Shown one piece after another: positions 16,469-31,801 of a stretch of DNA of 64,000 bases (the first letter of the stretch is position 1; every line of letters begins with the position of its first letter). The DNA lies in the NCBI GenBank assembly GCA_028404505.1, contig JAOOBM010000002.1, forward strand, positions 7,027 through 71,026, given 5' to 3'. The DNA comes from Acidimicrobiaceae bacterium (GTDB lineage: Bacteria > Actinomycetota > Acidimicrobiia > Actinomarinales > Actinomarinaceae). The position numbers were made by a program, and so were the translations under genes. The notes below the pieces were generated by a model that saw only the letters and a list, made by a program, of their open reading frames with translations, made no database searches and had not been told where the DNA came from.

Positions 16469-17335
16469 TTAATCCTTTATACACAGGGATGCATAATTCT
16501 CTAGGTATTCTCTCTCAGATACCTGCAAAACAAGATCATCTCTGTAATAAAGATAATCTCCCCCATAGTAAAGGACTAATGCGTCAGCAAATAATTCTTC
16601 ACTTCCAAAAAATTCTTGAGCTTTTTTTCTTTGATTCTCACCTTCTGAGTTGACACAGTTTCTTGTTAAATATGAAAGTGCGTGAGATGTTTCATGAAGC
16701 AATGTATTGTAAGCTCTATTATTAGCAAATGCTTTGTTTGAAACCCAGACTGATAATTTCCAATTTGAATTTGTTGAGCCATCTGGAAATGTTCCAGCTG
16801 AATCCCATACACCAAAAGGACATCTGCCCAAAATTGTAGCCGCGTAAGAGTGACAACCGTTTACAAATATGACATTATTTTCTACAGATTTTCTCAACTC
16901 TAAAGGTAAATTGGCAACTAATGTATCAAGGTTGAATTGATTTTCACCCTCAAATCCATCAAATGATATAAATTCACCCTCGTAAATTTTTATGTTTTCC
17001 GAATTATCCGAATTGAAGGCAACTGAGTCTTCTTTTTCTAGTACTTCAATTGTTGTTGTAGTTCGTGGAATTGTCGTTGTAGTTGATGTAGTAGTTGAGG
17101 AGGTAGTTGTAGTTGGTATAGTAGTTGTCGTCGAAGATGAGGTAGTAGTAAGTTGAATGGTAGTTGTCGTCGAAGATGAGGTAGTAGTAGTTGATGATGA
17201 AGTAGTAGATGTTTCAGTACTTCCAATATTAGCTTGAATACTTATCTCAATTGGATTATTTATTACATATATATAAGACAAACTAATGAATAAAACAATT
17301 AAAATGACAATAGTAACGGTTAATTTACCACTCAT
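16469..17335 (-). CDS. membrane-anchored Thr/Ser-rich protein with a C-terminal HExxH (putative zinc metallopeptidase) domain
   Basis: N-terminal TM helix, a poly-T/S linker of about 60 aa, then NGCHSY...LLHETSHAL...EELFAD. It is a clear paralog of 35238..36176. The start overlaps the upstream gene by 11 nt. Confidence 0.65.
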   Translation of the reverse strand: MSGKLTVTIVILIVLFISLSYIYVINNPIEISIQANIGSTETSTTSSSTTTTSSSTTTTIQLTTTSSSTTTTIPTTTTSSTTTSTTTTIPRTTTTIEVLEKEDSVAFNSDNSENIKIYEGEFISFDGFEGENQFNLDTLVANLPLELRKSVENNVIFVNGCHSYAATILGRCPFGVWDSAGTFPDGSTNSNWKLSVWVSNKAFANNRAYNTLLHETSHALSYLTRNCVNSEGENQRKKAQEFFGSEELFADALVLYYGGDYLYYRDDLVLQVSEREYLENYASLCIKD

Positions 17336-18905
17336 TTACTGATTCGCTAAGATCATCATCAACTAAATCTATAATTTCTTCATCATCAATCTTTAAACTT
17401 TCTTCATAGTCAGCGGGTCTATTCAATTCAGCATATTTTTTCATGAAGTTACCTAGTAGTAAAATTATGAATATATAAATTAATAAAACAAGCATGAATC
17501 TGTAAGCTAGCTCTCCACTCTGTAATAAAGTTTGTTGTAATTCATTAAATTCACTGTCAGGTGGTAAGACAAGGATTCTTATAAATAGCCAAATACTTAT
17601 CAAAAAGCTAACAATTGGCATTGCCTGATAAATTCCATCTGAGTCACCAATTGCATCAAATAACTCATTCCCTCCCCAAGGAACTGCTTTAAATATAACT
17701 CCCTCTAAACACATTAAGTAAGTAAGTTTACAAATTGCCATTAAAACACCTGAAGAGCTAACCGATTCAAATGATGTTGCGTAGAAGAAAAAATATCCAA
17801 CAATTGAAAGACTTATCATTGAATAAAATTTAGGTGACAATTCCGCTTTTGGTCTCTTCGAAACTACATGTATTGCTGCTATAAAACCAAGAATAAATCC
17901 AAAAGGAAGATCAATAACAATGAAGAGTATTGTTGAAAGTACTGCAAAAAACATGGCTTGTGGATTCCAATCAAATTTCACAATTTGGTCATACAGAAAA
18001 TATTCAATTAGAGATTCTATACCCTCATAAAAGAAGGTAACAATAATAAGTCCAAATAAGACACCAACAAAAATTGCTAAATTCTCTTGCCGTACTTGAA
18101 ATGTGAAGCCCTCCTCAACAAATGCATACAAGAGAGATGTAATTAGAGCCACAAGCGTTATCTCCATTGCTGTCTCAAGCCTTGTTTTATTTCTTAATTT
18201 GCTTTCACGATTTGACCACCTGACTCTATAGTATGCAATTATTCTGTTGAACCACTCCTGGGCGAGTAAAACTCCATAAAATAGAAATATAATTCCAGAA
18301 GTTATAAGAAATGCAAAAGCATTTTTAGCCTGATCTGAAAAATCAATATCACTGAAGAGTGGAATAGTTGTAATGAGCTCATTTGTGAATGTTATATTTG
18401 TTGATGTATCAATTACTGTTTCTTCAATAATAAAATCATCGACGGGAACAGTAGTAGTTATTACAGGAAGATCAGGAATTTTATTAATTATATACTCATC
18501 TGAAGTAATTTCAGTAGTAATGTCTCTATAACAATAAACCGAAGCGCAGTCCGGTCCACTATATTGTGTGTAGTTAGTTGATAAAATTTTTAAAATTATC
18601 GAAAGATCTGTAGTCCCATCCCATTGAATAATTTTTTGTCCTTTTTCAGAGTAATCGATAATCTCCAATGGTTCTCCTTGCAATCCATCAGATGTAAGTT
18701 CACGAACTGAAATAATCAATTCATCAATATTTTCAAGACCACTAACTAACCATGAAATTTGTAAATTATTTTCATCTAATCTTGCAGATTCTATTTCAAT
18801 AGTTGCTTCATCAGTATCATGTAAATTTGTATCTAAATATCCATTGGGGTATACACCGTTAAAAAAAGAAAAGAAAAAGATTAATGAAATAATTATTTTT
18901 TTCAT
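17325..18905 (-). CDS. polytopic membrane protein of unknown family (signal peptide, ~200-aa extracytoplasmic domain, ~8-9 TM helices, acidic tail)
   Basis: The start is placed at ATG 18905..18903, which shares one base with the sortase TAA stop (TAATG) and yields the signal-like MKKIIISLIFFFSFF. The ORF track extends to 18980. Confidence 0.7.
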   Translation of the reverse strand: MKKIIISLIFFFSFFNGVYPNGYLDTNLHDTDEATIEIESARLDENNLQISWLVSGLENIDELIISVRELTSDGLQGEPLEIIDYSEKGQKIIQWDGTTDLSIILKILSTNYTQYSGPDCASVYCYRDITTEITSDEYIINKIPDLPVITTTVPVDDFIIEETVIDTSTNITFTNELITTIPLFSDIDFSDQAKNAFAFLITSGIIFLFYGVLLAQEWFNRIIAYYRVRWSNRESKLRNKTRLETAMEITLVALITSLLYAFVEEGFTFQVRQENLAIFVGVLFGLIIVTFFYEGIESLIEYFLYDQIVKFDWNPQAMFFAVLSTILFIVIDLPFGFILGFIAAIHVVSKRPKAELSPKFYSMISLSIVGYFFFYATSFESVSSSGVLMAICKLTYLMCLEGVIFKAVPWGGNELFDAIGDSDGIYQAMPIVSFLISIWLFIRILVLPPDSEFNELQQTLLQSGELAYRFMLVLLIYIFIILLLGNFMKKYAELNRPADYEESLKIDDEEIIDLVDDDLSESVNEW

Positions 18906-20563
18906 TATCCAAATACCTCTACCCTTTCCAGTTGTCCAATAACTACAAGCCTTTCTCTTGCAGAGAATTTTGGATGACATGTGGTTAACGTTATTCTGTC
19001 GTCACCATAGTCCTCCAGTACATAATTATCTTCGGGAGATACGATCTTCACATCTATAACTCGGTATTCATATTGATTTGTATTTGTTTGAAATATTATT
19101 GTTTCACCAATCTGAACTTTATCAAGATTGCCGAATGGTGCACCATATGTAGTTCTATGTCCAGCAATTGCGAAGTTTCCTCCCGAACCTGGAAGTGCAG
19201 TTCCAAGTATATAACCGGGTCCATACTCTAATTTGTTACTCGTTGCACCAAAGACCACATAATGATTTATATTTGCAGATAGGATTGTTAACCTTCCAAC
19301 AACATCTGGAAGAAACTTTGCCTTTGCTGCTTGATTAGTAAGAGTTTTTGTTGCAATTGAGATAACAGACTCTTGAAATTCATCTGTTTGTGATAAATTA
19401 TTTAATGAACTATCAGTCGCGATGTTTTTATTTCTTAATTCAGAAAGTTTAACATCACTAACATTAAATTTATTTTCTAATAGATATTGCTCATCATTTA
19501 TTACTGAAGTAGAAAAAAATGTTTGATTAATTGAATAAATCAAAATTAAAAAACCTACTATTAATAAACCTACACCAAGTGGAAGAAGTGATCTTGTATT
19601 TGTACTTTCAAATGATTTTTTAGTTTCTGCTACTTCTCTTTGTCTTCGGTTTTTTTTTACAGGTAAATCAAATTTAAGTCTTGGAATGTTTCTATGTTTC
19701 TCAACTGGTTTTTTTGAAAAGACAATAGAAAATCGATCAGATGTCATCAATGCCAGCTTTTCTAATAACATTTCTTTTGTTACATCAACTCCTAAGTACT
19801 TTGCATTTTTAGATATATTTTTGACTGCAGATGTTAGGTAGTCTATCTCCTTAAGCATTGTCATGATGTCTTCTGTGAAATTATCAGGCTCAGCAATTAA
19901 AGGATTAAATCTCTCACCTACATCTACACTGATAATAACTTCTGTGCCAATAGCATTCTCAAGTACCTTTTTTAAAATATTTGATTTTACATAAATTTCT
20001 GAAAGTTCTACCTCAAAATTCTGATTAACATAACTCAGCGATTTTTGATTTTCAATTTCGTCTGAAGATAGATTTATTTCATTTCCGGAATCATCAGAAT
20101 TTATTTTTTTTAAGTCTTTTTGGTTTATTAAATTTTCTATTTCTTTAGCACTACTTAATTGATCCCTTATTTCAGTTGCTATATCAGGATTCTCAAGCAA
20201 ATATAATTTAGCTTTTTCTTTTCCATACCCGAGTTTTTCTTCGCCATATAAAAACCAATTACCTTTTTTTGTTACAATTTTTTCACTTACAGCAATATCT
20301 AGAAACTTACCATCAAATATTTGCTCAGCTACATCTTCTTCAATTTCTTCATATTCAACAAAAATATTTGTACTAGGATCTTCTTTCTTGAAACGTGAAA
20401 AAGGCCTTTTAGCTTTTATTGGTTCGATTGAATTTTCTTCTAAAAGTGTTGCATCTGAAATGACATCTGGATCATTAGATCTTTTTCTTCTAATTTTTAA
20501 TACAAATAGAACGGCAAAGATGTTGATAATTATTATCAGTAAATATATAAAAAAATATGCCAT
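18905..20563 (-). CDS. sortase (TLxTC type, class E-like) with a long N-terminal extension: TM1, ~300-aa cytoplasmic region, TM2, catalytic domain
   Basis: The C-terminal domain carries AIAGHRTTYGAPF (His), ITLTTCHP (Cys) and SARERLVV (Arg). The ATG at 20563 directly abuts the TAG stop of the giant gene. Confidence 0.85.
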   Translation of the reverse strand: MAYFFIYLLIIIINIFAVLFVLKIRRKRSNDPDVISDATLLEENSIEPIKAKRPFSRFKKEDPSTNIFVEYEEIEEDVAEQIFDGKFLDIAVSEKIVTKKGNWFLYGEEKLGYGKEKAKLYLLENPDIATEIRDQLSSAKEIENLINQKDLKKINSDDSGNEINLSSDEIENQKSLSYVNQNFEVELSEIYVKSNILKKVLENAIGTEVIISVDVGERFNPLIAEPDNFTEDIMTMLKEIDYLTSAVKNISKNAKYLGVDVTKEMLLEKLALMTSDRFSIVFSKKPVEKHRNIPRLKFDLPVKKNRRQREVAETKKSFESTNTRSLLPLGVGLLIVGFLILIYSINQTFFSTSVINDEQYLLENKFNVSDVKLSELRNKNIATDSSLNNLSQTDEFQESVISIATKTLTNQAAKAKFLPDVVGRLTILSANINHYVVFGATSNKLEYGPGYILGTALPGSGGNFAIAGHRTTYGAPFGNLDKVQIGETIIFQTNTNQYEYRVIDVKIVSPEDNYVLEDYGDDRITLTTCHPKFSARERLVVIGQLERVEVFG

Positions 20564-23500
20564 CTAAAATTTGAATGCTCTTCTTAGTATAAAAGCACCA
20601 AATCCGATTAGCATCAATCCAAATGAAATGATTAAACCACCAACATTTCGACCTGTAAATGGTATTCCTGGTGTTGGAGGGGAATCATCAGTAAATTGTG
20701 GTGTAAATGGATTCGATGCATCCTCTATATAAACAAATTCAACGAAATCATCACCTGGAAGGAACAAGAGTGATTCACCATTATCCTCCATTTCTTGATC
20801 GTCGCCATCACCTTCCATAACATTATCTGTATTTTCAGTAACTTCTACTTCATCGATAGGATTCTGTTCCTCATTAATTGGACGCTCATCCTCGATACAA
20901 TCAGCATCCTTGTTCTTAATCATTTTTTGAACTTTACCATTTTCATTGTTTGTTACTTCAAGAGCAACCGTAAAGAATTTATTTTCTCCTACTTCTATAG
21001 AGGAGAAATCTATTGTTTGGCCTGCTGGGACGTTGACAGTCTCTTGAGCAATGAGTGTTGTGTTGATCCAGATTTTCTTTAGAACTTTTGCAGAAACATT
21101 AGATCTTGAATTATCTACTGTAATACCAAACTCTGCTCCACCGTCTTCGAAGTCACAAACCCTATTAGTTGAAACAATCGGCTCAAATATATATTTCACA
21201 GGTGGCAATGTTGTAGTAGTGACTGACTGACATATAACTGTTTCTGCTTGAGATAACTGATAAGGAGAGTTGAGGTCGAACTGTGTAAAGCTGTTTTCAA
21301 CTGCTCTCCACTGTATAGTTGTATTATCAGATACCGTTAATTTTCTCGTTACAGGACTTGATGCGTTAACTGTGACTGTGTCATAGTTGGTCCATGGTCC
21401 ATTATTAAATTTATATTCAAGATAAAATGTCTTAACTTGATCAGATAGGTTTCTCATTTCTATTGTAGATACGGCAGCACTTTCAGTACATTCAGATATA
21501 GTTTGAATCAATTGAGGATTTGAGATTAAACCATCTCCACATTCTGAAGTTGATTTAGACGGTGTTTGTTGATAGCTTACGTCACTTGTGAGCTTATATT
21601 CAAATACAATTTGATCTCCATCATTTAAAGGAACTTCAATAGAGTAATTCGATGAAGTTGGATTTATTGAAACCGGTGCTGGACCAGACTGTGAAGGTCC
21701 ATTATTGATGGAGTAGTTGTACATCGCACTAACTGATTGAGGCCCAACATTTATAATTCGCAATTTTGCTGATTTACTACTGTTGTCAGCAGGACATATA
21801 ATTTCTGTAACAGCAGTAATTGCGTTAGCTTGAGAACAGTCGTTTCCTGTGCCGGAAACGTATTTATAATCTGTATCAGTAGCTAGTTTGTATCTCCATT
21901 GGAAAGGAGTATTTGCTGGTATTTTTACACCTCCAGTTGAAGTATACGTACTATTTACTGAGGGTGATCCAACACTCTGCCAATCTGCGTTATTGATATT
22001 GATGTCATAAATTACAGTTGCAACTTGACCGGGGTTAACAATAGACAATTTAGCAAATGAGCTACCGTCTACACATTCATTTGTATTGTATGCACTGATA
22101 ACATTTGTAACTGTAGAACAGTCTGATGGAGCAACATTAATTACTGGTTGAGACCAATTTGTTGTACCAGAAATTCGATATCTATAGGTGTAGTAGTTTG
22201 TAGTAAATGGTCTACTATCTACATACGGCTGCAAACTACTAACAGTCTGTGTACCCATTGAAAGATAGTTAGCATTATCTGTTGAATACTGAACTTCAAC
22301 TTGTTTTGAGGCAGTTGAACTACTTGTAATTGTAAATGTAGATGTCTTCGTTGAGGTAGCTCCATTTGGGGTACACGAGTTGGTTGCTGATGCTGACAAG
22401 CTATCATCGATACAGTTCACTTGAGCAGATCTTGTTTCGAAGTTTTCCTGTGAATTAGAATAATCACCCTGAACAATAGATGACTTCCATTTCCAGTTGA
22501 TATATTGTCCAGAGGTTAAATTTTGATAATTAGAGCTATTCTCCTGGCCAACTTCAACAGTTACCTCTGTTAGGAATTGATAGGAACCACCGCTGATTGA
22601 GTAATAGAGTTCATAATACTGGGTTAATGATCCAGTATTTTTAATCGTGATTCTGGAATCTCTCGTTAGATTTGTACAAGCGTCAAAAGCAACTGTAACG
22701 TCAGATGTCTGTATACAACTAACCGATAAAGCTTCAAGCTCTGTATAGGTTCCAGTTAATGTACTGGAAAGTCCCAATCGATATTTCCATTTAACACTTG
22801 AACCACTAAGAACGCTAGGAGAATCCAGGACCAATGGGGTTCCATTTGTAACAGAATAAATTCCTTTAAGGAGGTAGCCGGACCCTGTGTCATACAAAGC
22901 CTCAACATATACTGTCTCATTTGAGTTATTTGTAAATGTTAATTCTGATATTCTCTTTCCTGCAACACACTCTTTAAGAACATTACTAACAGCGACTTGA
23001 TTAAGAATAGGTGTTTCACAATCTAGTGCTGGTATCGTGTCCATTGTTGTCTCTGATGCGGATGTAAGTTTTACGACCGTTCCAGCATATTTATACTTCC
23101 AGCTAATAGTTTGACCACTTACTATTGTTTTGGCTATCGGCAATTCATTACCAGCAGTTATTTCAACTGTCGATACTTCGGTAGTCCAATCTCCAGTATT
23201 GAGTTTAGATTGTACCGTAACAAGCATTGGGGTTGCGCCTGTGTTTTTTAATACAAGTGTAGAAGTTGCTGTTTGATCTGTACATGTGCTGAATCCATGA
23301 CTTACTGTTAATTGGACTCCACAATCAACCTCTTCAGCTCCTCCTGCAAGAGAAATAAAGCTTGCATTTGTTAAAGCTGTGGTGTTGTAAGCAGCTTTAT
23401 ATTGCCATTCGATAGTAGTACCAGAGGTTACAGATTGTGTAACCGAATTAGCTTGCCCTGCAGCAAGCGTTCCATCAGAGGATGTTACTTTATTAATCCA

Positions 23501-26500
23501 TACTCCACCATCAATTCTGTATTGTATGTGGAAATAAGCTGCGTTTGCGCTTGATGACAATGTGGAATAGTTGAAAGTTGAAGTCTTTGCACCAGAGACA
23601 CATTGACTTAATGAAGTATATGGAGTGGAAATGCTTACCCCTGTACAATCAACTACCTCTGAGGTCGGTGGTGTAGTCCAGGTTAAAGAACTAAAATCAT
23701 TTCCCGTTTCAGAGACTTTGTATCTCCACGTTATTGCTTGTCCCTGTTGGACAGATATTGGTATGTCTGTTGAATTTCCAGTCGATACCACAACTTGTTG
23801 AGCTGCAGTAGTCCAGTTGTTGCTATTAGCTCCTTCAAATGTGTATTGGGCTTGATAGTATAAACTTCCCGAACTTGAGTTGAATATGTTTAACTTAGAG
23901 GTCTTGTAGCCATTAGCATCACAGGCGGGATCCATTGTAATAGAGATATCTTCACCATTACAGGTAATAGTTGTCGCATTTAAAGTTGTCCATCCAGTTG
24001 GAAGATCTGCTTGAGTTTTTGCAACTTTATATTGCCACTGTATCGTCTGTCCAGCTTGAACATTTTGTGAATGTGAAAATTCACCATCTACACTTATTTC
24101 TTGGTCTGATTTATCAATCCATTCTCCAGAACCAATTTTGTACTGAACTTTGAAATATGCTGAAGTTGTAGCGCTTGAGCTATTTTTTATTATGAATTTC
24201 ACATTCTTTGTGTCGTTATAACAAAGACCAAATGATTGAACAACACTCGGATCAATATTTTCACAATTTATAGTCTTTTTAAATGCGGAGTTAGCAGTGT
24301 GATCAACCCAGGTTGCAGATGCCAAACCAGCATTAGAAGTTGCTGCTTTATAACGCCATTGGATATATTTTCCAGAAGCTACAGTCTGTGTAAATGCCTG
24401 TGGTGAACCCGCGGTAAGTATTAAGTCATTATCTGCGTCAGCATATGCTGAGGTACCCTCAATAAAATACTGGACATGATAATGTACGTCTCCAGCCGTG
24501 TTGTTGGTTAGGACAAAATTAGATACTTGGCTATTGCTTATACATGTATCTAATGTATGACTGATGAGTGTATCTAATGAGCAATCCTCGGGAGTTTGAG
24601 TACTTTCATTTATCCAGTCACTTTCAGCAGGAGCTGTAGCTGAGGTCATTGGATAGTATCTCCATTGAATTGTTTCTCCATTAGGGACACTTTGATGTAT
24701 GACATTTTGCGCTCCCACACCTACGAAATTTGCTTGGCCGCTCGTGTGATATTGCCAAGACTGATTATCGCCACTCAAATCATATTGAACATAAAAGTAT
24801 GCTCCATCATTGGCAGAAGAAGAGTTTTCCATAGTAAAAGTCGATCTTCTCTGACCACTTATACAAGACCCAAATGCTGAAGAGCCGGTTGCATCAAGAA
24901 TTACACAATCAACAGTAGCTGAAGCCGTGAGTTCTACGACTTCCGCATTTGCATAATCATTAGGTGTATTACTAACCTGATATTTCCATTGAATATTTTT
25001 ATCATGTGGAACATCAACGGTTAATGTTCTATTTGTAAAATTGGGACCAACTTCTAAATTTGCATCTTTTAAAACCCAAGTATTGCCAGTTTTATAATGA
25101 ACCTTAAAATAAACAGTATTGTTTGTTTCATCATTTGTTACATTAAGTGTCGCTGTTTGAGATCCGTTATCACAAGAACCCATTGAATTAGTGACTGTTA
25201 CATTTATTACGCAGTTCACATAACCACTTGTATCATCTTCTGTCCAGTTGTTTAAGAAGTCTGCTGAAGTATTGACAGATTCGTATCTCCAGATAATTTT
25301 CTGTCCTTCAGTTATTTGTAGGTTATTTGATGTTACCTGAGAAGCTCCTGGAGCAACTACAGTATCTATTAACGAGGAGTTTGTCCAATCTGTGACTGTT
25401 GTAGTAGGCGTCACAATTTTGTATTGAACACGGAATTTAGCAGCAGATGTAGAAGCGCCGGTATTAGTTACCTTAAATGTTGCTGCTCTGAAATTCGATC
25501 CACAACTTGAATATTGTGCTTCTACTGTTACTAAACTATATGGACAATTGATTGTCTTTGTATCCGTGTAATTCCATTCCTGTGCATTTAAATTACTCAA
25601 AATTTTATTAACTTTATAACGAATTTGGATTGTTCCCTGGTGCACAACAGTCACTTGCATAGTATGGTTTTCAGTTTGTCCATTCGTTACAGATTCCGCT
25701 GTCTTAAATGCAACCCAATCGGTATCAGTATTTCTTTTGTATTCAACAGTGAAATAAGCTGTGTCAGAACTTGATGGAACTAGGTTTACGATTGGTGTAG
25801 AAGAGCCGTTTCCACATGTTGTTGAATCTACATTTATATCTACTGAACCACCTGCACAGCCACAATCAACTGTTGCACTAGCAGTTACCTCTTCCCACTC
25901 TTGACCATCAAAGTCACCACCATTGGTTGTATCTTTTACTCTCCACTGTATCGTCTCACCATCTGGGACAAATTTTGATAAACTATTATTAGTCGCGCCC
26001 CCACTGACCGAGATATCGAAGGCAGATTCTAGTGAATCCGTTGCAGATAACCACTGACCATTTCCAATCTTGTACTGCACTTTATAGTAAGAGGTGTAGT
26101 TGTCATTATTTTTAATAGATAATGTAGAGGTTGCTCCTAAATCATTACACTCACAAGTTGTTAATGTCTGAGAGTAAGTTGAGTCAGGATCACAGTCAAC
26201 ATTTACAGTTGTTGTGTTGACCATATTATGGTCCATGAAATTATCATTGAATTCATTTGAAGAATCGTCAACTCTATAGTGTTCATAATATGACCCTGTA
26301 CTTGTCAAACCGCCTATATAGTCAAACTGCCTTGCGTTGATGTTTGTATTTGAATATAAGTTGTGATATGTAGTATAAGAGGTGCTAGTGTTAGGCAGAG
26401 TATGATCTCTTACGTAGCCCCATTTGATTTCAAGAGCAGTACCATTAGTTACTTTCACACTTGGCAAATTAATAGTTTCCGTATTAGATAAAGCCGCTCT

Positions 26501-29500
26501 CTGATCGATATGTTTAGACCACGTAACACCCCCGTTTGTTGAGTATTGATAGAAAAGTCTTGCAGGTTGATAAGGATCTAAATGGGTAACCGTAGTGTCA
26601 TTAAACGTAAACTCAACCTGTCCTTTATTTTCTAAACAAGTCAACTGCGTAGTAGTAAGTGTGACAGGTTCTACATCATTCTGATCACAATTGGTATCTG
26701 GTGCAATAGTCATTGTTGTAAAAACACCAGTGAAATTACCCATTGTAAGGTTGTTAGTTGTAGAGGTGTATGTTCTATATCTAATTTGGTACTGATGTGT
26801 TGAGTCAGTAAGAATTACGCCAGCTACGTAATGATTTTGGCTAAAGTTACTTGGCCTGATAAATCCGTAGTAGGTAGGGTGTGTATCATTAAAATGGCCT
26901 TTTGTTCCAGAGTTGGAGGACCAAGAATAGGTGGTTAAGTTTGAGTACTGCATTCTACCAAGAGGTTTCCATGTGTTGCCATCATGTGAGATTTCAGCTT
27001 CTATGTGAATATATGAACTGGAAGTAAAGCTTGCAGATGTGCCGTTTCTTTTAAACTTAAACTCTAACTTATCAGCTCCATAGAGGTTACAAGATACATA
27101 ATCTGTGCTTACTGTGAAAAAGTCATCTGTGCCACAATCAATCGTTATTAAATCATTTATAACTTCTGTACCGTATGATCCGTTTTGTGTGCTCTCAATG
27201 TGATATTTAATCAATACAGTATCATTATTTCCATACGATTCTGGAAGAGTAACCGTACCGTTACTCGTATTTGCATTTAACGTAGCGACAGACCAGTTCG
27301 TATCATAACCCTGGCTATTCTTATTTATTTTGTAGTAAAAATAATTAGTAGTATTAGAAGAGTTCGTGTATCTTATCTTTAATTGTTGTGAACCGTTGTA
27401 ACATGCTTCTGGTGTTGTATTTTGTTCAACTGTTACGGATGATACATCAGAAGAACAGTTGATCAATAATGTACCCGTGGTAGTGAAGGCACCAGAAGGT
27501 GGTGATGTTGCTGCGTATCTGTACTGCATAACAACTGTCGTACCCTGAGGAATTGTATCCTGTATTGTATATGTTTTAACCTCACCTGGAAGAATCATCT
27601 GATAGAGTGTGGCGTTACCGTTATTTGGATCATAGAAGGCGTCGTTGTAGTTTTGCCCTAGATCGGTTGAGTACTGTACATGAAAATAACCAGTAGCCCA
27701 ACCATTGTTGCCAATTGTAATGGTCGGTGTCGCACCGCCAGATACACATGTTCCAAGAGCAATAGATGCTGTGCTAGCTCCAACAGTTGGACAGTTCACT
27801 GTCTTTTCCGCTGAATAATAGGTATTAGAATTTGAGAAATCTCCACTTATATAGGAGAACTGAAATTTATATTTAATTTTGCCAGCATGATTAACTGTTA
27901 ATTCTTTTGTATAGGTAGTACCCATTGCATAATTAGTTTCAACAGGTGTCCAGTTACTTCCACTATCTGTCGATTGCCAAAGCTTCAGATAATACTGCAC
28001 ACCACTTGGTCTTGTAAGCGTGAGTGTAGAGAGTGCAAAACCACCAGTTTCAATTGTATTTTGACATTCGCCAATAGTGACAAGATCGCTGTAAGTGTCA
28101 TTTGTTGAATCAGTCGTAGTTGTTGTTCCCCATCCAGATGTATTAATTTCTGGCTGACAATCAGTAGTTCGCTGTTCTGTAGTTTTATTGTAATTTCCAA
28201 GTGTAATCCAATCAGTTGAGCCAAGTTCATTTTCTGCATACGCAACTTTGTACCTTAGTTTCATAACTGATCCTGTGACATACCTGGTTGAAAGATATAT
28301 ATAACGATTGGCACTCGAACTTGCCATATTTAGATTGTTTGTTGCTTGAACTGCCGTGTATCCGTCAGCTGAAAGACTTCCTGAACCGTTACTTACAGCA
28401 AAGTAACTATTGTCATGGTAAGTGTCATCCATCCTATAAAAAAGATTGGTGGTATAAAAATTGGCACCATTATCATCTGAAACCTCGAATGCATACCACA
28501 GAGATGTTCTGTTTGGATCATTATAGTTTTGGTTATACAAGACCCAGCCCATCCACTGCTTATTGTCTACACAGCTATTTTGTTCGTTAGAAGGTCTTGT
28601 TTCGTATTGATAACTGCTGTTATTATATGGATCTACATTGATATCACAGTCGTGATGATAACTTAACCCACTTGTTGGAGAGTTTAAATACTGATAGGGA
28701 TAGGCTTGCGTATCCCAAGTTGGATTCTCTGTATAAGATTTTTGAATCCTCCAGAACATGTAAGCGTCTTCATTAACCCCATAGGTTACGGCACCAGCTG
28801 TGTATACAAATGTAGTATTAGCAGCTACTGAGAATGTCGTGGCGTCTGGCGTGTTGTAGTTGGGACTGTAGGAAACACTTGTGCTGAGTGTTGAGGCAGT
28901 TCTTGATGGGTTAACTTTAAAGTAAATTGTTTGTGATTCGTTGTTGGTTATTGTCAATGTTGATGTCTGTCCAGCTGAGCTACAAGAAGTAACATCATAA
29001 CTTGCAGAGATATCTGGAATACATTGATGTATTTGTCCGTTAGTGAGATTATATGGATACGCCGTAGTGTTGGTCCAATCCGGTGTCTCAATATAAGAGC
29101 CCTGCACAAGCCACTGCATATATCCGTAAGTTCCATCAGGGTAAAGCTTTCTCATATTTGGACTGCTTGATGCATCATATGTGAGTGTAGAATTTGCCGG
29201 AACAGAGAATGTAATTGCTTCGCTATTAATGTCATAATTCGAAGTGTTAGATGTGCTGTAGTCATAAGGTGTATCGTTTTTTGTAGGAACTGCTCTGAAA
29301 TACAGAGTCTGGGATTCGTTGTTGGTTATTGAAAGAGTAGAGTATTGACCATTAGCTGAACACTCACTAAATGATGCTGATTGAGAGTAATTAGCAATAC
29401 AGTTTGCCTCTCTACTAAATACTGCCCAAGACGCATTTTGTGTAGAGTCAGTAGGGTTTGTTGCTGCAATTCGATACCTAAAATATCCTGTTGAGGAGGT

Positions 29501-31801: not shown

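What the first reader, a model, noticed from the sequence alone, without database searches (positions are those of the whole stretch)
20564..31801. 11.2-kb gene for a 3745-aa sortase-anchored surface protein built from ~29 divergent Cys-bracketed modules
What the sequence shows. The gene is one uninterrupted ORF occupying 17.5% of this window, in a genome where intergenic spacers are otherwise a few bp. The protein has an N-terminal signal/TM (…IALFSIVFITSWAVPQEEASA) and a head of about 280 aa (aa 56-336) with blade-like segments (GINALAMSPTGVMYVT, DQIYMAQAGFEHGYIYNV, NKVILYDKDNN). About 29 tandem modules follow (aa 337-3635). Each module is bounded by a Cys pair and carries a recurring skeleton: T(L/V)T(I/L)xNxG..xYFxVQY(K/R)I..G.W … G(Q/E)xI(Q/E)W(R/Q/K)Y … (V/I)(D/N)C. 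After the modules comes an acidic stalk (…EVEVTENTDNVMEGDGDDQEMEDNGE…). The protein ends in a sorting signal: IPFTG, a hydrophobic helix and RRAFKF. What is inference. The modules are old and divergent (roughly 20-30% identity by eye), not recent duplications. I cannot assign them to a named domain family from memory, and a CARDB/Ig-like beta-sandwich is only a guess. A streamlined planktonic cell devoting this much coding capacity to one wall-anchored protein suggests a major surface function, such as adhesion to particles or hosts, a surface shield, or a phage-receptor decoy.
Basis: partly seen in the sequence, partly recalled or inferred. Interest (0 to 1): 0.85.

Follow-up and report, generated by a model that had tools for sequence, protein, structure and literature searches.

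The report
Giant wall-anchored surface fibril protein
One of the smallest free-living ocean bacteria (Candidatus Actinomarina) spends about 1% of its genome on a single 3,745-residue protein that most likely forms a long surface fibril with a binding head, tied to the cell wall by its own neighbouring sortase enzyme, which in sister species is fused into the same protein.

Summary
An uninterrupted 3,745-aa ORF lies at 20564..31801, on the minus strand. It has a signal peptide, a 280-aa head, 29 Cys-bracketed segments, an acidic linker and an IPFTG/TM/RRAFKF sorting signal. Independent assemblies cover the whole gene without gaps.

- **Organism and locus:** the organism is Candidatus Actinomarina. 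The gene sits directly after thrC in about 35 species, with 11-26 detectable modules.
- **Modules:** 26 of the 29 segments match one HMM. They model confidently as 7-strand beta-sandwiches, hit no Pfam family, and are only remotely FN3-like. Only 300 of 1.84 billion representative proteins match.
- **Head:** it is a beta-propeller related to Pfam DUF6923. It is closed by one conserved Cys pair and is under strong purifying selection.
- **Sortase:** the next gene, in frame after a single TAG, encodes a two-TM class-E-like sortase with a RecA_C-like cytoplasmic domain. In 10 other species the surface protein and the sortase form one ORF.

Best reading: a sortase-anchored fibrillar adhesin-like protein with a disulfide-stapled stalk. 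Adhesion and the ligand are inferred, not shown. The gene is not hypervariable between near-identical strains, and two genomes lack the cassette. I rate it a new variant of a known kind.

The parts
20564..31801 (-). Complete ORF of the giant surface protein (3745 aa plus TAG stop at 20564-20566)
   Evidence: continuity confirmed by independent assemblies
31637..31801 (-). N-terminal region with Sec-type signal peptide (aa 1-55, ...FITSWAVPQEEASA)
   Evidence: Read from the sequence. The same layout occurs in all orthologues.
30791..31636 (-). Head domain (aa 56-337): beta-propeller related to DUF6923, bracketed by Cys62 and Cys337 (DGASC)
   Evidence: AF2 gives pLDDT 67.5, pTM 0.73 and about 20 strands. 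Foldseek gives 142 PDB hits at E<=1e-3; all 50 listed are beta-propeller proteins. Orthologous heads hit PF21959 and align with the window head. Exactly 2 Cys, 269-301 aa apart, occur in 34 of 35 orthologues, the 35th being a parsing artefact. dN/dS is 0.03.
21230..30793 (-). Stalk: 28 tandem Cys-bracketed modules M01-M28 (aa 337-3524). 26 are detected by one HMM (M03 only marginally). The fold is FN3/Ig-like.
20897..21232 (-). Base domain M29 (aa 3524-3635): a distinct Cys-bracketed domain (86-aa Cys gap) present in all 10 complete orthologues examined
20666..20896 (-). Acidic linker (aa 3636-3712), presumed to span the cell wall
   Evidence: Read from the sequence. Orthologues carry T-rich or PDPTD-type linkers at this position.
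20567..20665 (-). Cell-wall sorting signal (aa 3713-3745): IPFTG, a hydrophobic helix, then RRAFKF
   Evidence: Relatives carry LPFTG, LPDTG, YGPTG or FADTG or LA[A/N/D]TG.
18905..20563 (-). Sortase gene (552 aa), in frame directly after the TAG. Layout: TM1+KIRRKR, cytoplasmic RecA_C-like domain (nt 20153-20311), linker, TM2, catalytic domain (nt 18929-19291; AGHRTTYG, TLTTCHP, SARERL).
   Evidence: the exact protein is on 17 metagenome contigs
17325..18905 (-). Conserved cassette partner: a 526-aa membrane protein (signal, small extracellular domain, T-rich linker, multi-TM C-terminal half), function unknown
   Evidence: Found next to the sortase/TetR in both clades at 39-66% identity. It has a weak NCBIfam hit to NF041501, an FGLLP-motif membrane protein. 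No Pfam hit.
31911..32528 (-). TetR-family regulator immediately upstream; candidate regulator of the cassette
   Evidence: Pfam TetR_N. It always neighbours the cassette: upstream of it in the window's clade, after the sortase in the other clade.

Best explanation
This is a real gene of Candidatus Actinomarina that encodes a covalently wall-anchored, fibril-forming surface protein of the fibrillar-adhesin type.

Proposed mechanism:
1. The protein is exported by Sec.
2. It is cleaved at the IPFTG sorting signal by the dedicated class-E-like sortase encoded by the next gene, and is linked to peptidoglycan.
3. The acidic linker crosses the wall.
4. The base domain and 28 FN3/Ig-like modules form a stalk of roughly 100 nm. 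This assumes about 3.5-4 nm per domain, which is my estimate.
5. The stalk holds a beta-propeller head (DUF6923-related) away from the cell, where the head binds a ligand on particles, polymers or other cells.

Each module probably carries one disulfide between the Cys after strand A and the Cys after strand G, and the head is closed by Cys62-Cys337. Pulling force would then pass through strand A and the disulfide, so the stalk could not be unravelled.

What is shown: the gene, the domain anatomy, the folds, the adjacent sortase, conservation and synteny.
What is inferred: the disulfide pairing, the stalk length, the anchoring chemistry and the adhesive role.
For: - **Gene and continuity:**
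- **Organism and conserved locus:** the gene follows thrC in about 35 Ca. Actinomarina genomes.
- **Stalk modules:** one HMM detects 26 of 29 segments. The AF2 model has pLDDT 91.7 and is an all-beta sandwich. Foldseek finds only generic Ig/FN3/E-set neighbours at TM 0.43-0.55. The module profile hits tandem fn3 proteins in register, and hhalign gives 69% probability.
- **Head:** it models as a beta-propeller. Orthologous heads hit DUF6923, with L009 at 28.9 bits against a cut-off of 27. The head is the most constrained part of the protein, with dN/dS 0.03 against 0.25 for the whole protein. That fits a specific binding function.
- **Anchor:** the IPFTG/TM/basic tail is the only such C-terminus in the window. 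The sortase gene is adjacent, with catalytic motifs, and class E is its best NCBIfam class. In 10 species the LA[A/N/D]TG signal and the Sortase domain lie in a single ORF, which ties enzyme and substrate together.
- **Cysteines:** the extracellular Cys count is even in every complete orthologue once Cys upstream of the true start are excluded (L011 and L020 have stop-to-stop ORFs that run upstream of the start). At least 601 of 687 distinct module instances keep all three Cys positions. In the model, strand A (residues 5-11) lies between Cys1 and Cys14, so those two cannot pair. M13 carries CxC...CxC, an extra Cys at both ends of the same module, and this is conserved in homologues.
- **Architecture:** an N-terminal functional domain, tandem stalk domains and a C-terminal sortase motif match the fibrillar-adhesin layout described for Actinobacteria (PMC8286594).
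Against: - No ligand is known and no adhesive domain family is recognised. DUF6923 is uncharacterised, and the window's own head does not reach any Pfam threshold.
- The head model has only moderate confidence (pLDDT 67.5).
- The sorting motif IPFTG is non-canonical. Neither Pfam nor NCBIfam anchor models fire, and the sortase scores below the curated class-E cut-off (114 against 160 bits).
- The disulfide pairing could not be measured because no model coordinates were available. Natural Cys-loss variants that would decide it do not exist.
- Ca. Actinomarina is regarded as free-living plankton (PMC7771536), so a surface to adhere to is not obvious.
- Two genomes lack the whole cassette (L013, L008), so it is dispensable.
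Confidence: 0.6

Rival explanations
1. A non-adhesive surface coat or spacer. Many copies of a long, rigid, Thr/Ser/Asn-rich (possibly glycosylated) fibril would form a brush that keeps phages, grazers or surfaces at a distance, or changes the effective size and drag of a very small cell. The head would then be a cap rather than a ligand binder.
For: - The composition is 13% Thr, 11% Ser and 8.5% Asn.
- The gene is large relative to a genome of about 1.1 Mb.
- The stalk modules evolve faster than housekeeping genes (dN/dS up to 0.68).
- Head types differ strongly between species, as expected for a surface exposed to phages or grazers.
- The cassette is lost in two genomes.
Against: - The head is the most conserved part between close relatives (99% aa identity, dN/dS 0.03). 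That is not expected of a passive cap or of a phage-driven target.
- SNP density in the gene equals that of the flanks among near-identical strains.
Confidence: 0.2
2. A nutrient-capture or enzymatic 'fishing rod'. The propeller head would be a binding protein or hydrolase for dissolved polymers, for example cyanobacterial or algal exudates, held out beyond the diffusion boundary of the cell.
For: - Beta-propellers include lectins and hydrolases among the structural neighbours (PLL5 lectin, PON1, GH43).
- The organism is auxotrophic and depends on exogenous amino acids (PMC7771536).
- The head is strongly constrained.
Against: - No catalytic family or motif was detected.
- The structural matches are generic (TM 0.31-0.45 normalised to the query).
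- Products released about 100 nm from the cell would largely diffuse away.
Confidence: 0.12
3. A 'periscope'-type variable-length protein whose repeat number changes rapidly by recombination between near-identical repeats, to tune the reach of the surface protein.
For: Module number differs between species: 11-17 HMM-detectable modules in complete orthologues of 2158-2892 aa, against 26 in the window.
Against: - The repeats share only about 20% aa identity, and there are no DNA tandem repeats.
- No repeat-number or length difference was seen among six 99.5-99.9% identical contigs, and there are none against a 93%-identical genome.
Confidence: 0.04
4. An assembly artefact or a decaying pseudogene.
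For: Many single-cell contigs break 1-3 kb into the gene, and some long-read assemblies show frameshifts (L001, L036).
Against: - The ORF is uninterrupted over 11.2 kb.
- Independent assemblies are collinear.
- Purifying selection is evident (dN/dS 0.25 overall, 0.03 in the head).
- Intact orthologues occur in 10 or more species.
Confidence: 0.01

Closest known systems
Sortase-anchored fibrillar adhesins of Gram-positive bacteria (for example the Cna, SdrG and Rib-domain protein class surveyed by Monzon et al. 2021, PMC8286594)
   Same: A single polypeptide with an N-terminal functional head, a long array of tandem Ig-like stalk domains, and a C-terminal LPxTG-type sorting signal processed by a sortase. 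The N-terminal-head, C-terminal-anchor polarity is typical of Actinobacteria.
   Different: - The stalk domain belongs to no Pfam family and is rare: 300 hits among 1.84 billion representatives.
- The stalk is stabilised by a conserved Cys pair rather than by isopeptide bonds.
- The head is a DUF6923-type propeller, not a known adhesive domain.
- The host is a genome-streamlined planktonic cell, not a host-associated bacterium.
- The sortase is a dedicated two-TM enzyme, and in sister species it is fused to its substrate.
Class E (housekeeping) sortases of Actinobacteria with LAxTG substrates (for example Streptomyces SrtE1, PMC5148588)
   Same: Class E is the best NCBIfam class for the sortase. 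The relatives' substrates carry LAATG, LANTG or LADTG. His, Cys and Arg catalytic motifs are present.
   Different: - The score is below the curated class-E cut-off (114 against 160 bits).
- The window's substrate motif is IPFTG.
- The enzyme has an extra N-terminal TM helix and a cytoplasmic segment of about 320 aa with a RecA_C-like domain.
- In 10 species it forms the C-terminal part of its own substrate.
Fibronectin type III domain (Pfam PF00041) arrays in bacterial surface proteins
   Same: A 7-strand beta-sandwich of about 100 aa. The module profile aligns in register with fn3 repeats over strands B to F/G.
   Different: The Pfam fn3 model does not hit any module at E<1. hhalign probability is only 69%. 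The modules add a Cys / strand A / Cys N-terminal segment and a C-terminal Cys that are essentially invariant.
Pfam DUF6923 (PF21959), an uncharacterised repeat/propeller domain of bacterial surface proteins
   Same: Orthologous heads match it: L009 at E 1.2e-6, above the gathering score, and L018 across profile positions 16-233 of 234. The window head aligns with these heads and models as a propeller.
   Different: The window's own head gives no DUF6923 hit. The family has no known function, and I found no paper that mentions it.

Membership tests
LPxTG-type sortase substrate (cell-wall-anchored surface protein) | N-terminal secretion signal | tested here: met
   A hydrophobic segment followed by ...QEEASA is read from the sequence. 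The same layout occurs in all orthologues. No signal-peptide predictor was available.
LPxTG-type sortase substrate (cell-wall-anchored surface protein) | C-terminal pentapeptide motif, then a hydrophobic helix, then a basic tail, within the last ~50 residues | tested here: met
   IPFTG + 20 hydrophobic residues + RRAFKF. The TG is conserved, with variants LPFTG, LPDTG, YGPTG, FADTG and LAxTG in relatives. The curated anchor HMMs did not fire, so the motif is non-canonical.
LPxTG-type sortase substrate (cell-wall-anchored surface protein) | A cognate sortase with the catalytic His/Cys/Arg | tested here: met
   The adjacent gene has Pfam Sortase at E 1.6e-29, with AGHRTTYG, TLTTCHP and SARERL motifs. 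It is fused to the substrate in 10 species.
LPxTG-type sortase substrate (cell-wall-anchored surface protein) | Cleavage after Thr and amide linkage to peptidoglycan | not testable with these tools
   Needs biochemistry.
Class E sortase (NCBIfam NF033747) | Score at or above the curated cut-off of the class-E model | tested here: not met
   The window scores 114.3 bits and L009 scores 107.9 bits, against a cut-off of 160. Class E is nevertheless the best-scoring class.
Class E sortase (NCBIfam NF033747) | LAxTG sorting motif in substrates | tested here: inconclusive
   The fused relatives carry LAATG, LANTG or LADTG. The window and its clade carry IPFTG, LPFTG, YGPTG or FADTG.
Fibrillar adhesin (as characterised in PMC8286594) | Multiple stalk domains repeated in tandem in one chain | tested here: met
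   26-29 tandem beta-sandwich modules.
Fibrillar adhesin (as characterised in PMC8286594) | At least one adhesive (ligand-binding) domain | tested here: inconclusive
   The head is a constrained beta-propeller, but it belongs to no family with demonstrated binding.
Fibrillar adhesin (as characterised in PMC8286594) | Cell-surface anchor | tested here: met
   A sorting signal plus an adjacent sortase.
fn3 (Pfam PF00041) | Significant match to the family HMM | tested here: not met
   No fn3 hit at E<1 for the whole protein or for 22 single modules. The reverse search hits fn3 arrays only weakly per repeat, and hhalign gives 69% probability.
   No Pfam CARDB hit. The Foldseek match to 3idu has E 0.04 and TM 0.48, no better than many other E-set domains.
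DUF6923 (Pfam PF21959) | Match to the family HMM above the gathering score | tested here: inconclusive
   The window head gives no hit. The orthologous head of L009 scores 28.9 bits (gathering score 27), while L018 (23.4 bits) and L010 (20.7 bits) fall below it. Homology of the window head to these heads rests on alignment A3, which has invariant Cys, Gly and the DGAxC motif.
Periscope (variable-length repeat) proteins | Near-identical tandem DNA repeats that give strain-level length variation | tested here: not met
   Modules share about 20% aa identity, there are no DNA tandem repeats, and no repeat-number or length difference was found among close strains.

The most novel reading that the evidence does not exclude
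The locus represents a self-contained 'substrate plus private sortase' anchoring module.

- In at least 10 Ca. Actinomarina species the giant surface protein, its LAxTG signal, a cytoplasmic linker and the sortase catalytic domain form one polypeptide. That polypeptide would cleave itself (in cis or between neighbours) and staple its own N-terminal 2,000+ residues to the wall, leaving a free membrane sortase behind.
- The window shows the split form of the same system. Here the sortase keeps an N-terminal TM+KIRRKR that occupies the same position as the sorting-signal helix and basic tail of the fused forms, and it has gained a conserved cytoplasmic RecA_C-like domain.
- I found no description of a natural sortase-substrate fusion in the searchable literature. 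The search was limited, so prior description cannot be excluded.
Probability: 0.5. Interest if true: 0.75.

Novelty: new variant of a known kind. Interest (0 to 1): 0.6.

Why it matters
Ca. [quoted passage not shown] A conserved 6.5-11 kb gene for a wall-anchored fibril therefore costs about 1% of the genome and needs an explanation.

- **Ecology.** The gene implies that these supposedly purely planktonic cells make specific physical contacts with particles, polymers, phytoplankton or each other. The head domain is a defined, constrained target for ligand screening.
- **Protein families.** The stalk module is a new Cys-stapled FN3-like family for databases. Current fibrillar-adhesin detection methods that rely on Pfam stalk and adhesive domains would miss this protein.
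- **Sortase biology.** The split and fused sortase arrangements offer a natural experiment on how sortases find their substrates, and a possible natural template for self-anchoring display systems.

The main genomic study of the order does not mention the gene or any sortase.

Tried and rejected
- **Whole-protein homologue search.** It timed out. I replaced it with a 430-aa segment, a head query and a head alignment. These returned only 20, 5 and 12 unnamed metagenome fragments.
- **Exact-sequence look-up of the giant protein.** It is not on record.
- **Family and structure searches on the modules.** Pfam and NCBIfam on the whole protein and on single modules gave nothing significant. The PDB sequence-profile search had a best E of 0.098. 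Foldseek on the module gave no hit at E<=1e-3 against the PDB or viral structures.
- **Deciding the disulfide pairing from natural Cys-loss variants.** There are essentially none. The deviations come from my search-window definitions or from contig ends. An apparent doubled Cys gap in L020/L001 is a nested ~95-aa insertion in the B-C loop, not a Cys loss.
- **Polarity of fusion versus split.** In a midpoint-rooted thrC NJ tree, the split-type L036 nests inside the otherwise fused clade, so the polarity stays unresolved.
- **Hypervariability.** Rejected at strain level: 0.1-0.8% divergence in the gene against 0.05-0.4% in the flanks.
- **SafA-type sortase partner (PMC9282373).** I read the paper. 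It concerns a small TM protein, in one species fused to the C-terminus of the sortase. It is not a substrate fusion and was not pursued.
- **Literature searches.** Searches for Actinomarina + sortase, DUF6923 and sortase fusion architectures found nothing relevant.
Full report
**1. The observation**

The window contains one uninterrupted ORF at 20564..31801 on the minus strand, encoding 3745 aa.

- The N-terminus has a hydrophobic signal that ends ...WAVPQEEASA.
- The C-terminus reads ...PGIPFTG-RNVGGLIISFGLMLIGFGAFIL-RRAFKF and is preceded by an acidic stretch.
- The protein has 62 Cys in a strict pattern. C62 and C337 bracket a head of about 280 aa. After that, short gaps (13-31 aa) alternate with long gaps (85-150 aa), giving exactly 29 Cys-bounded segments between aa 337 and 3635.
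- The segments share 20% identity on average (10-41%). The DNA has no tandem repeat. These are old, diverged duplications.
- An HMM built from 22 canonical modules detects 26 of the 29 segments. Three of the four outside the training set are clear and M03 is marginal (E 0.026). M07, M11 and M29 are not detected.
- M29 is a separate 'base' domain. Its 86-aa Cys-Cys spacing recurs in all 10 complete orthologues examined.

**2. Is the ORF real?**

Neither applies.

- The exact 552-aa product of the downstream gene occurs on 17 independent metagenome contigs.
- Six of these contigs are 99.5-99.9% identical to the window over the 3' 5.6-9.2 kb of the giant gene plus the downstream genes. Five are gap-free and one has a single gap opening.
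- A single-cell genome (L002, AH-321-L10) covers the 5' 9.2 kb at 92.3% aa identity with no gaps.
- Together these cover the whole gene.
- The dN/dS ratio against L002 is 0.25, compared with 0.04-0.09 for hom, thrC, TetR and YqeY. The gene evolves faster than housekeeping genes but is under purifying selection.

**3. Organism and conservation**

Using the upstream thrC as an anchor, a scan of species-representative genomes returned 44 loci, all Candidatus Actinomarina / Actinomarinales (OCS155).

- In about 35 of these loci the ORF directly after thrC (or after thrC-TetR) carries the same modules.
- Complete orthologues are 2158-2892 aa with 11-17 HMM-detectable modules. The window's clade has genes longer than 3080 aa.
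- Two genomes (L013, a 1.01-Mb contig, and L008) go from thrC straight to an SBF remnant or to rho, so they lack the cassette.
- Many single-cell contigs end 1-3 kb into the gene.
- The genome is about 1.0-1.1 Mb with an average gene of 900 bp, so this gene is about 1% of the genome.
- The main genomic paper on the order mentions neither a sortase nor this gene. No paper in the searchable library combines 'Actinomarina' and 'sortase'.

**4. The modules**

- AlphaFold2 on module M13, with the 22-module alignment, gives pLDDT 91.7 and an all-beta domain with about 7 strands.
- Foldseek finds no PDB or viral match at E<=1e-3. The best neighbours (TM 0.43-0.55) are generic Ig/FN3/E-set domains: factor XIII barrels, GH3 FnIII-like domains, FixG-related 2r39, CARDB 3idu and RbmA.
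- Pfam, NCBIfam and a PDB sequence profile give nothing significant.
- A profile search of 1.84 billion representative proteins finds only 300 hits at E<=1e-3, of which 24 are at E<=1e-30. Most are short fragments.
- The more distant multi-repeat hits are tandem fn3 proteins. The profile aligns with them in register over strands B to G, and hhalign gives 69% probability.
- I conclude that the module is a rare, very divergent FN3-like beta-sandwich that no curated family captures. CARDB specifically is not supported.

**5. The cysteines**

- At least 601 of 687 distinct module instances across all loci keep all three Cys positions. The exceptions come from how I defined the search windows.
- The number of extracellular Cys is even in every complete orthologue once Cys that lie upstream of the true start in two stop-to-stop ORFs (L011, L020) are excluded.
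- In the model, a 7-residue strand A (residues 5-11) lies between the first Cys (which is the last Cys of the preceding module) and Cys14. These two are therefore at opposite poles of the domain and cannot pair.
- Cys14, in the A-B loop, and the C-terminal Cys both lie at the C-terminal pole of an FN3-type fold (plus the established FN3 topology).
- M13 has an extra Cys at both of these places (CEC ... CGC), and this is conserved in homologues. That gives an even count only under intradomain pairing.
- I therefore infer one disulfide per module, from the A-B loop to the C-terminus, and one that closes the head (C62-C337). Exactly two Cys, 269-301 aa apart and ending in DGA[G/A/S]C, occur in 34 of 35 orthologues; the 35th (L003) picked up a Cys upstream of the true start.
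- A consequence, which is inference: tensile force passes through strand A and the disulfide, so the stalk cannot be extended by unfolding.
- I could not measure distances because model coordinates are not exposed.

**6. The head**

- Heads differ strongly between species (15-23% identity to the window's outside its clade) but align with invariant Cys, Gly and the DGAxC motif.
- Three orthologous heads hit Pfam DUF6923: L009 at E 1.2e-6, above the gathering score, L018 across the whole profile, and L010. The window's own head does not.
- AlphaFold2 on the window head, with 16 sequences, gives pLDDT 67.5, pTM 0.73 and about 20 strands.
- Foldseek returns 142 PDB hits at E<=1e-3. All 50 listed are beta-propeller proteins, including the PknD sensor, Pizza6, TolB, HHIP and the PLL5 lectin.
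- Between the window and L002 the head is 99% identical with dN/dS 0.03, the most constrained part of the protein. Module values range from 0.03 to 0.68. This points to a specific function for the head.

**7. The sortase, and an unexpected finding**

- The stop codon TAG is followed immediately, in frame, by the ATG of a 552-aa protein. Its parts in order are:
  - TM1 + KIRRKR;
  - a cytoplasmic region with a RecA C-terminal-like domain (Pfam E 1.2e-17);
  - a second TM helix;
  - a Sortase domain (E 1.6e-29) with AGHRTTYG / TLTTCHP / SARERL motifs.
- Class E is the best NCBIfam class for this sortase, but it scores below the cut-off.
- In 10 species (L009, L011, L015, L016, L019, L020, L022, L023, L025, L033) a single ORF carries all of the following: the modules, then LA[A/N/D]TG, a TM helix, RKRK, a cytoplasmic linker of about 170 aa, a second TM helix, and the Sortase domain. 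Pfam finds Sortase at E 2.5e-30 inside the L009 ORF.
- The topology of the fused form is coherent: substrate outside, a helix in, a helix out, enzyme outside.
- The cytoplasmic linker of the fused forms is homologous to aa ~190-340 of the window's sortase.
- In the window's clade the two genes are always separate. This holds for the 78 metagenome loci with sortases 49-99% identical, which carry the motifs IPFTG, LPFTG, LPDTG, YGPTG or FADTG. The RecA_C-like domain is conserved throughout that clade.
- Read-through of the TAG would put the sortase domain on the wrong side of the membrane, so the split is functional.
- A split form without RecA_C also occurs in L036. L036 nests within the fused clade on a thrC tree, so which state is ancestral is unresolved.
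- The giant protein is the only ORF in the window with a sorting-signal-like C-terminus. This fits a dedicated enzyme-substrate pair, although the rest of the genome was not examined.

**8. Interpretation**

- The architecture matches that of Gram-positive fibrillar adhesins: N-terminal head, tandem Ig-like stalk, C-terminal sortase signal (PMC8286594).
- I therefore read it as a wall-anchored fibril of roughly 100 nm that presents a binding propeller. The length assumes 3.5-4 nm per domain.
- I put the structural part of this reading at about 0.85 confidence, the adhesive role at about 0.5, and the reading as a whole at 0.6.
- Rival readings are a non-adhesive spacer or shield, a nutrient-capture head, and a periscope-type length regulator. 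The last is contradicted by the diverged repeats and the lack of length variation among close strains.
- An artefact is excluded.

**9. Novelty**

- The kind of system is known: a sortase-anchored fibrillar surface protein.
- The new elements are:
  - an uncatalogued, Cys-stapled FN3-like stalk family that is nearly confined to this lineage in current databases;
  - a propeller head of an uncharacterised family;
  - its conserved presence in an extremely streamlined planktonic genome;
  - a private two-TM sortase that in sister species is fused to its own substrate.
- I found no report of such a natural fusion, but the literature search was limited.
- I rate it a new variant of a known kind, with interest 0.6.

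Noticed in passing
window 20153-20311 (-), inside the sortase gene 18905-20563: The cytoplasmic loop of the sortase contains a RecA C-terminal-like domain (Pfam RecA_C, E 1.2e-17). It is conserved in all 552-aa-type sortases tested, down to 49% identity. It is absent from the fused sortases and from L036. I have no explanation for its role in a sortase.
   Followed up: partly
L009 11382-19988, L011, L015, L016, L019, L020, L022, L023, L025, L033: In ten Ca. Actinomarina species the giant surface protein, its LAxTG sorting signal and the sortase catalytic domain are encoded in one continuous ORF of 2158-2892 aa.
   Followed up: yes
window 17325-18905 (-) and 16469-17335 (-); also 35238-36176 (-): Two further cassette genes of unknown function lie here. 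The first is a 526-aa protein with a small extracellular domain, a Thr-rich linker and a multi-TM half; it has a weak NCBIfam hit to 'FGLLP motif-containing membrane protein'. The second is a 288-aa TM protein with a mucin-like Ser/Thr stalk and an HETSH (HExxH-like) motif. The 288-aa protein has a paralogue at 35238-36176 (weak SprT-like hits in both).
   Followed up: partly
window 31911-32528 (-) versus L009 19992-20618, L015 19137-19763: The TetR-family gene always neighbours the cassette, but its position differs. It lies between thrC and the giant gene in the window's clade, and after the sortase in the other clade. It may regulate the cassette.
   Followed up: no
L013 11311-12954; L008 1979-4000: Two Actinomarina genomes lack the whole cassette. 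In L013, thrC is followed by a 62-aa SBF remnant and then rho. In L008 the order is thrC-TetR-rho. This suggests a deletion polymorphism.
   Followed up: partly
L036 11466-16488 and 18462-21269: This Actinomarinales genome carries two giant module-bearing genes that flank the sortase and TetR genes. The second has its own signal peptide and head.
   Followed up: no
L001 5462-7417 (same in L020): One module carries a nested, Cys-free insertion of about 95 aa (GSLDLTDSS...AHTLTG) between strands B and C. This produces an apparently doubled Cys spacing of 185-186 aa.
   Followed up: partly
window 22000-32000 versus flanks: The giant gene has a higher G+C content (0.38-0.40) than the surrounding genes (0.29-0.35). 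This probably reflects its Thr/Ser/Gly/Ala-rich composition rather than foreign origin, since the gene is syntenic across the genus.
   Followed up: no
L024, L026-L029, L039 and other single-cell contigs: Many single-cell assemblies break 1-3 kb into the giant gene. Its full length is therefore systematically under-represented in public protein sets, where all database homologues were fragments.
   Followed up: no
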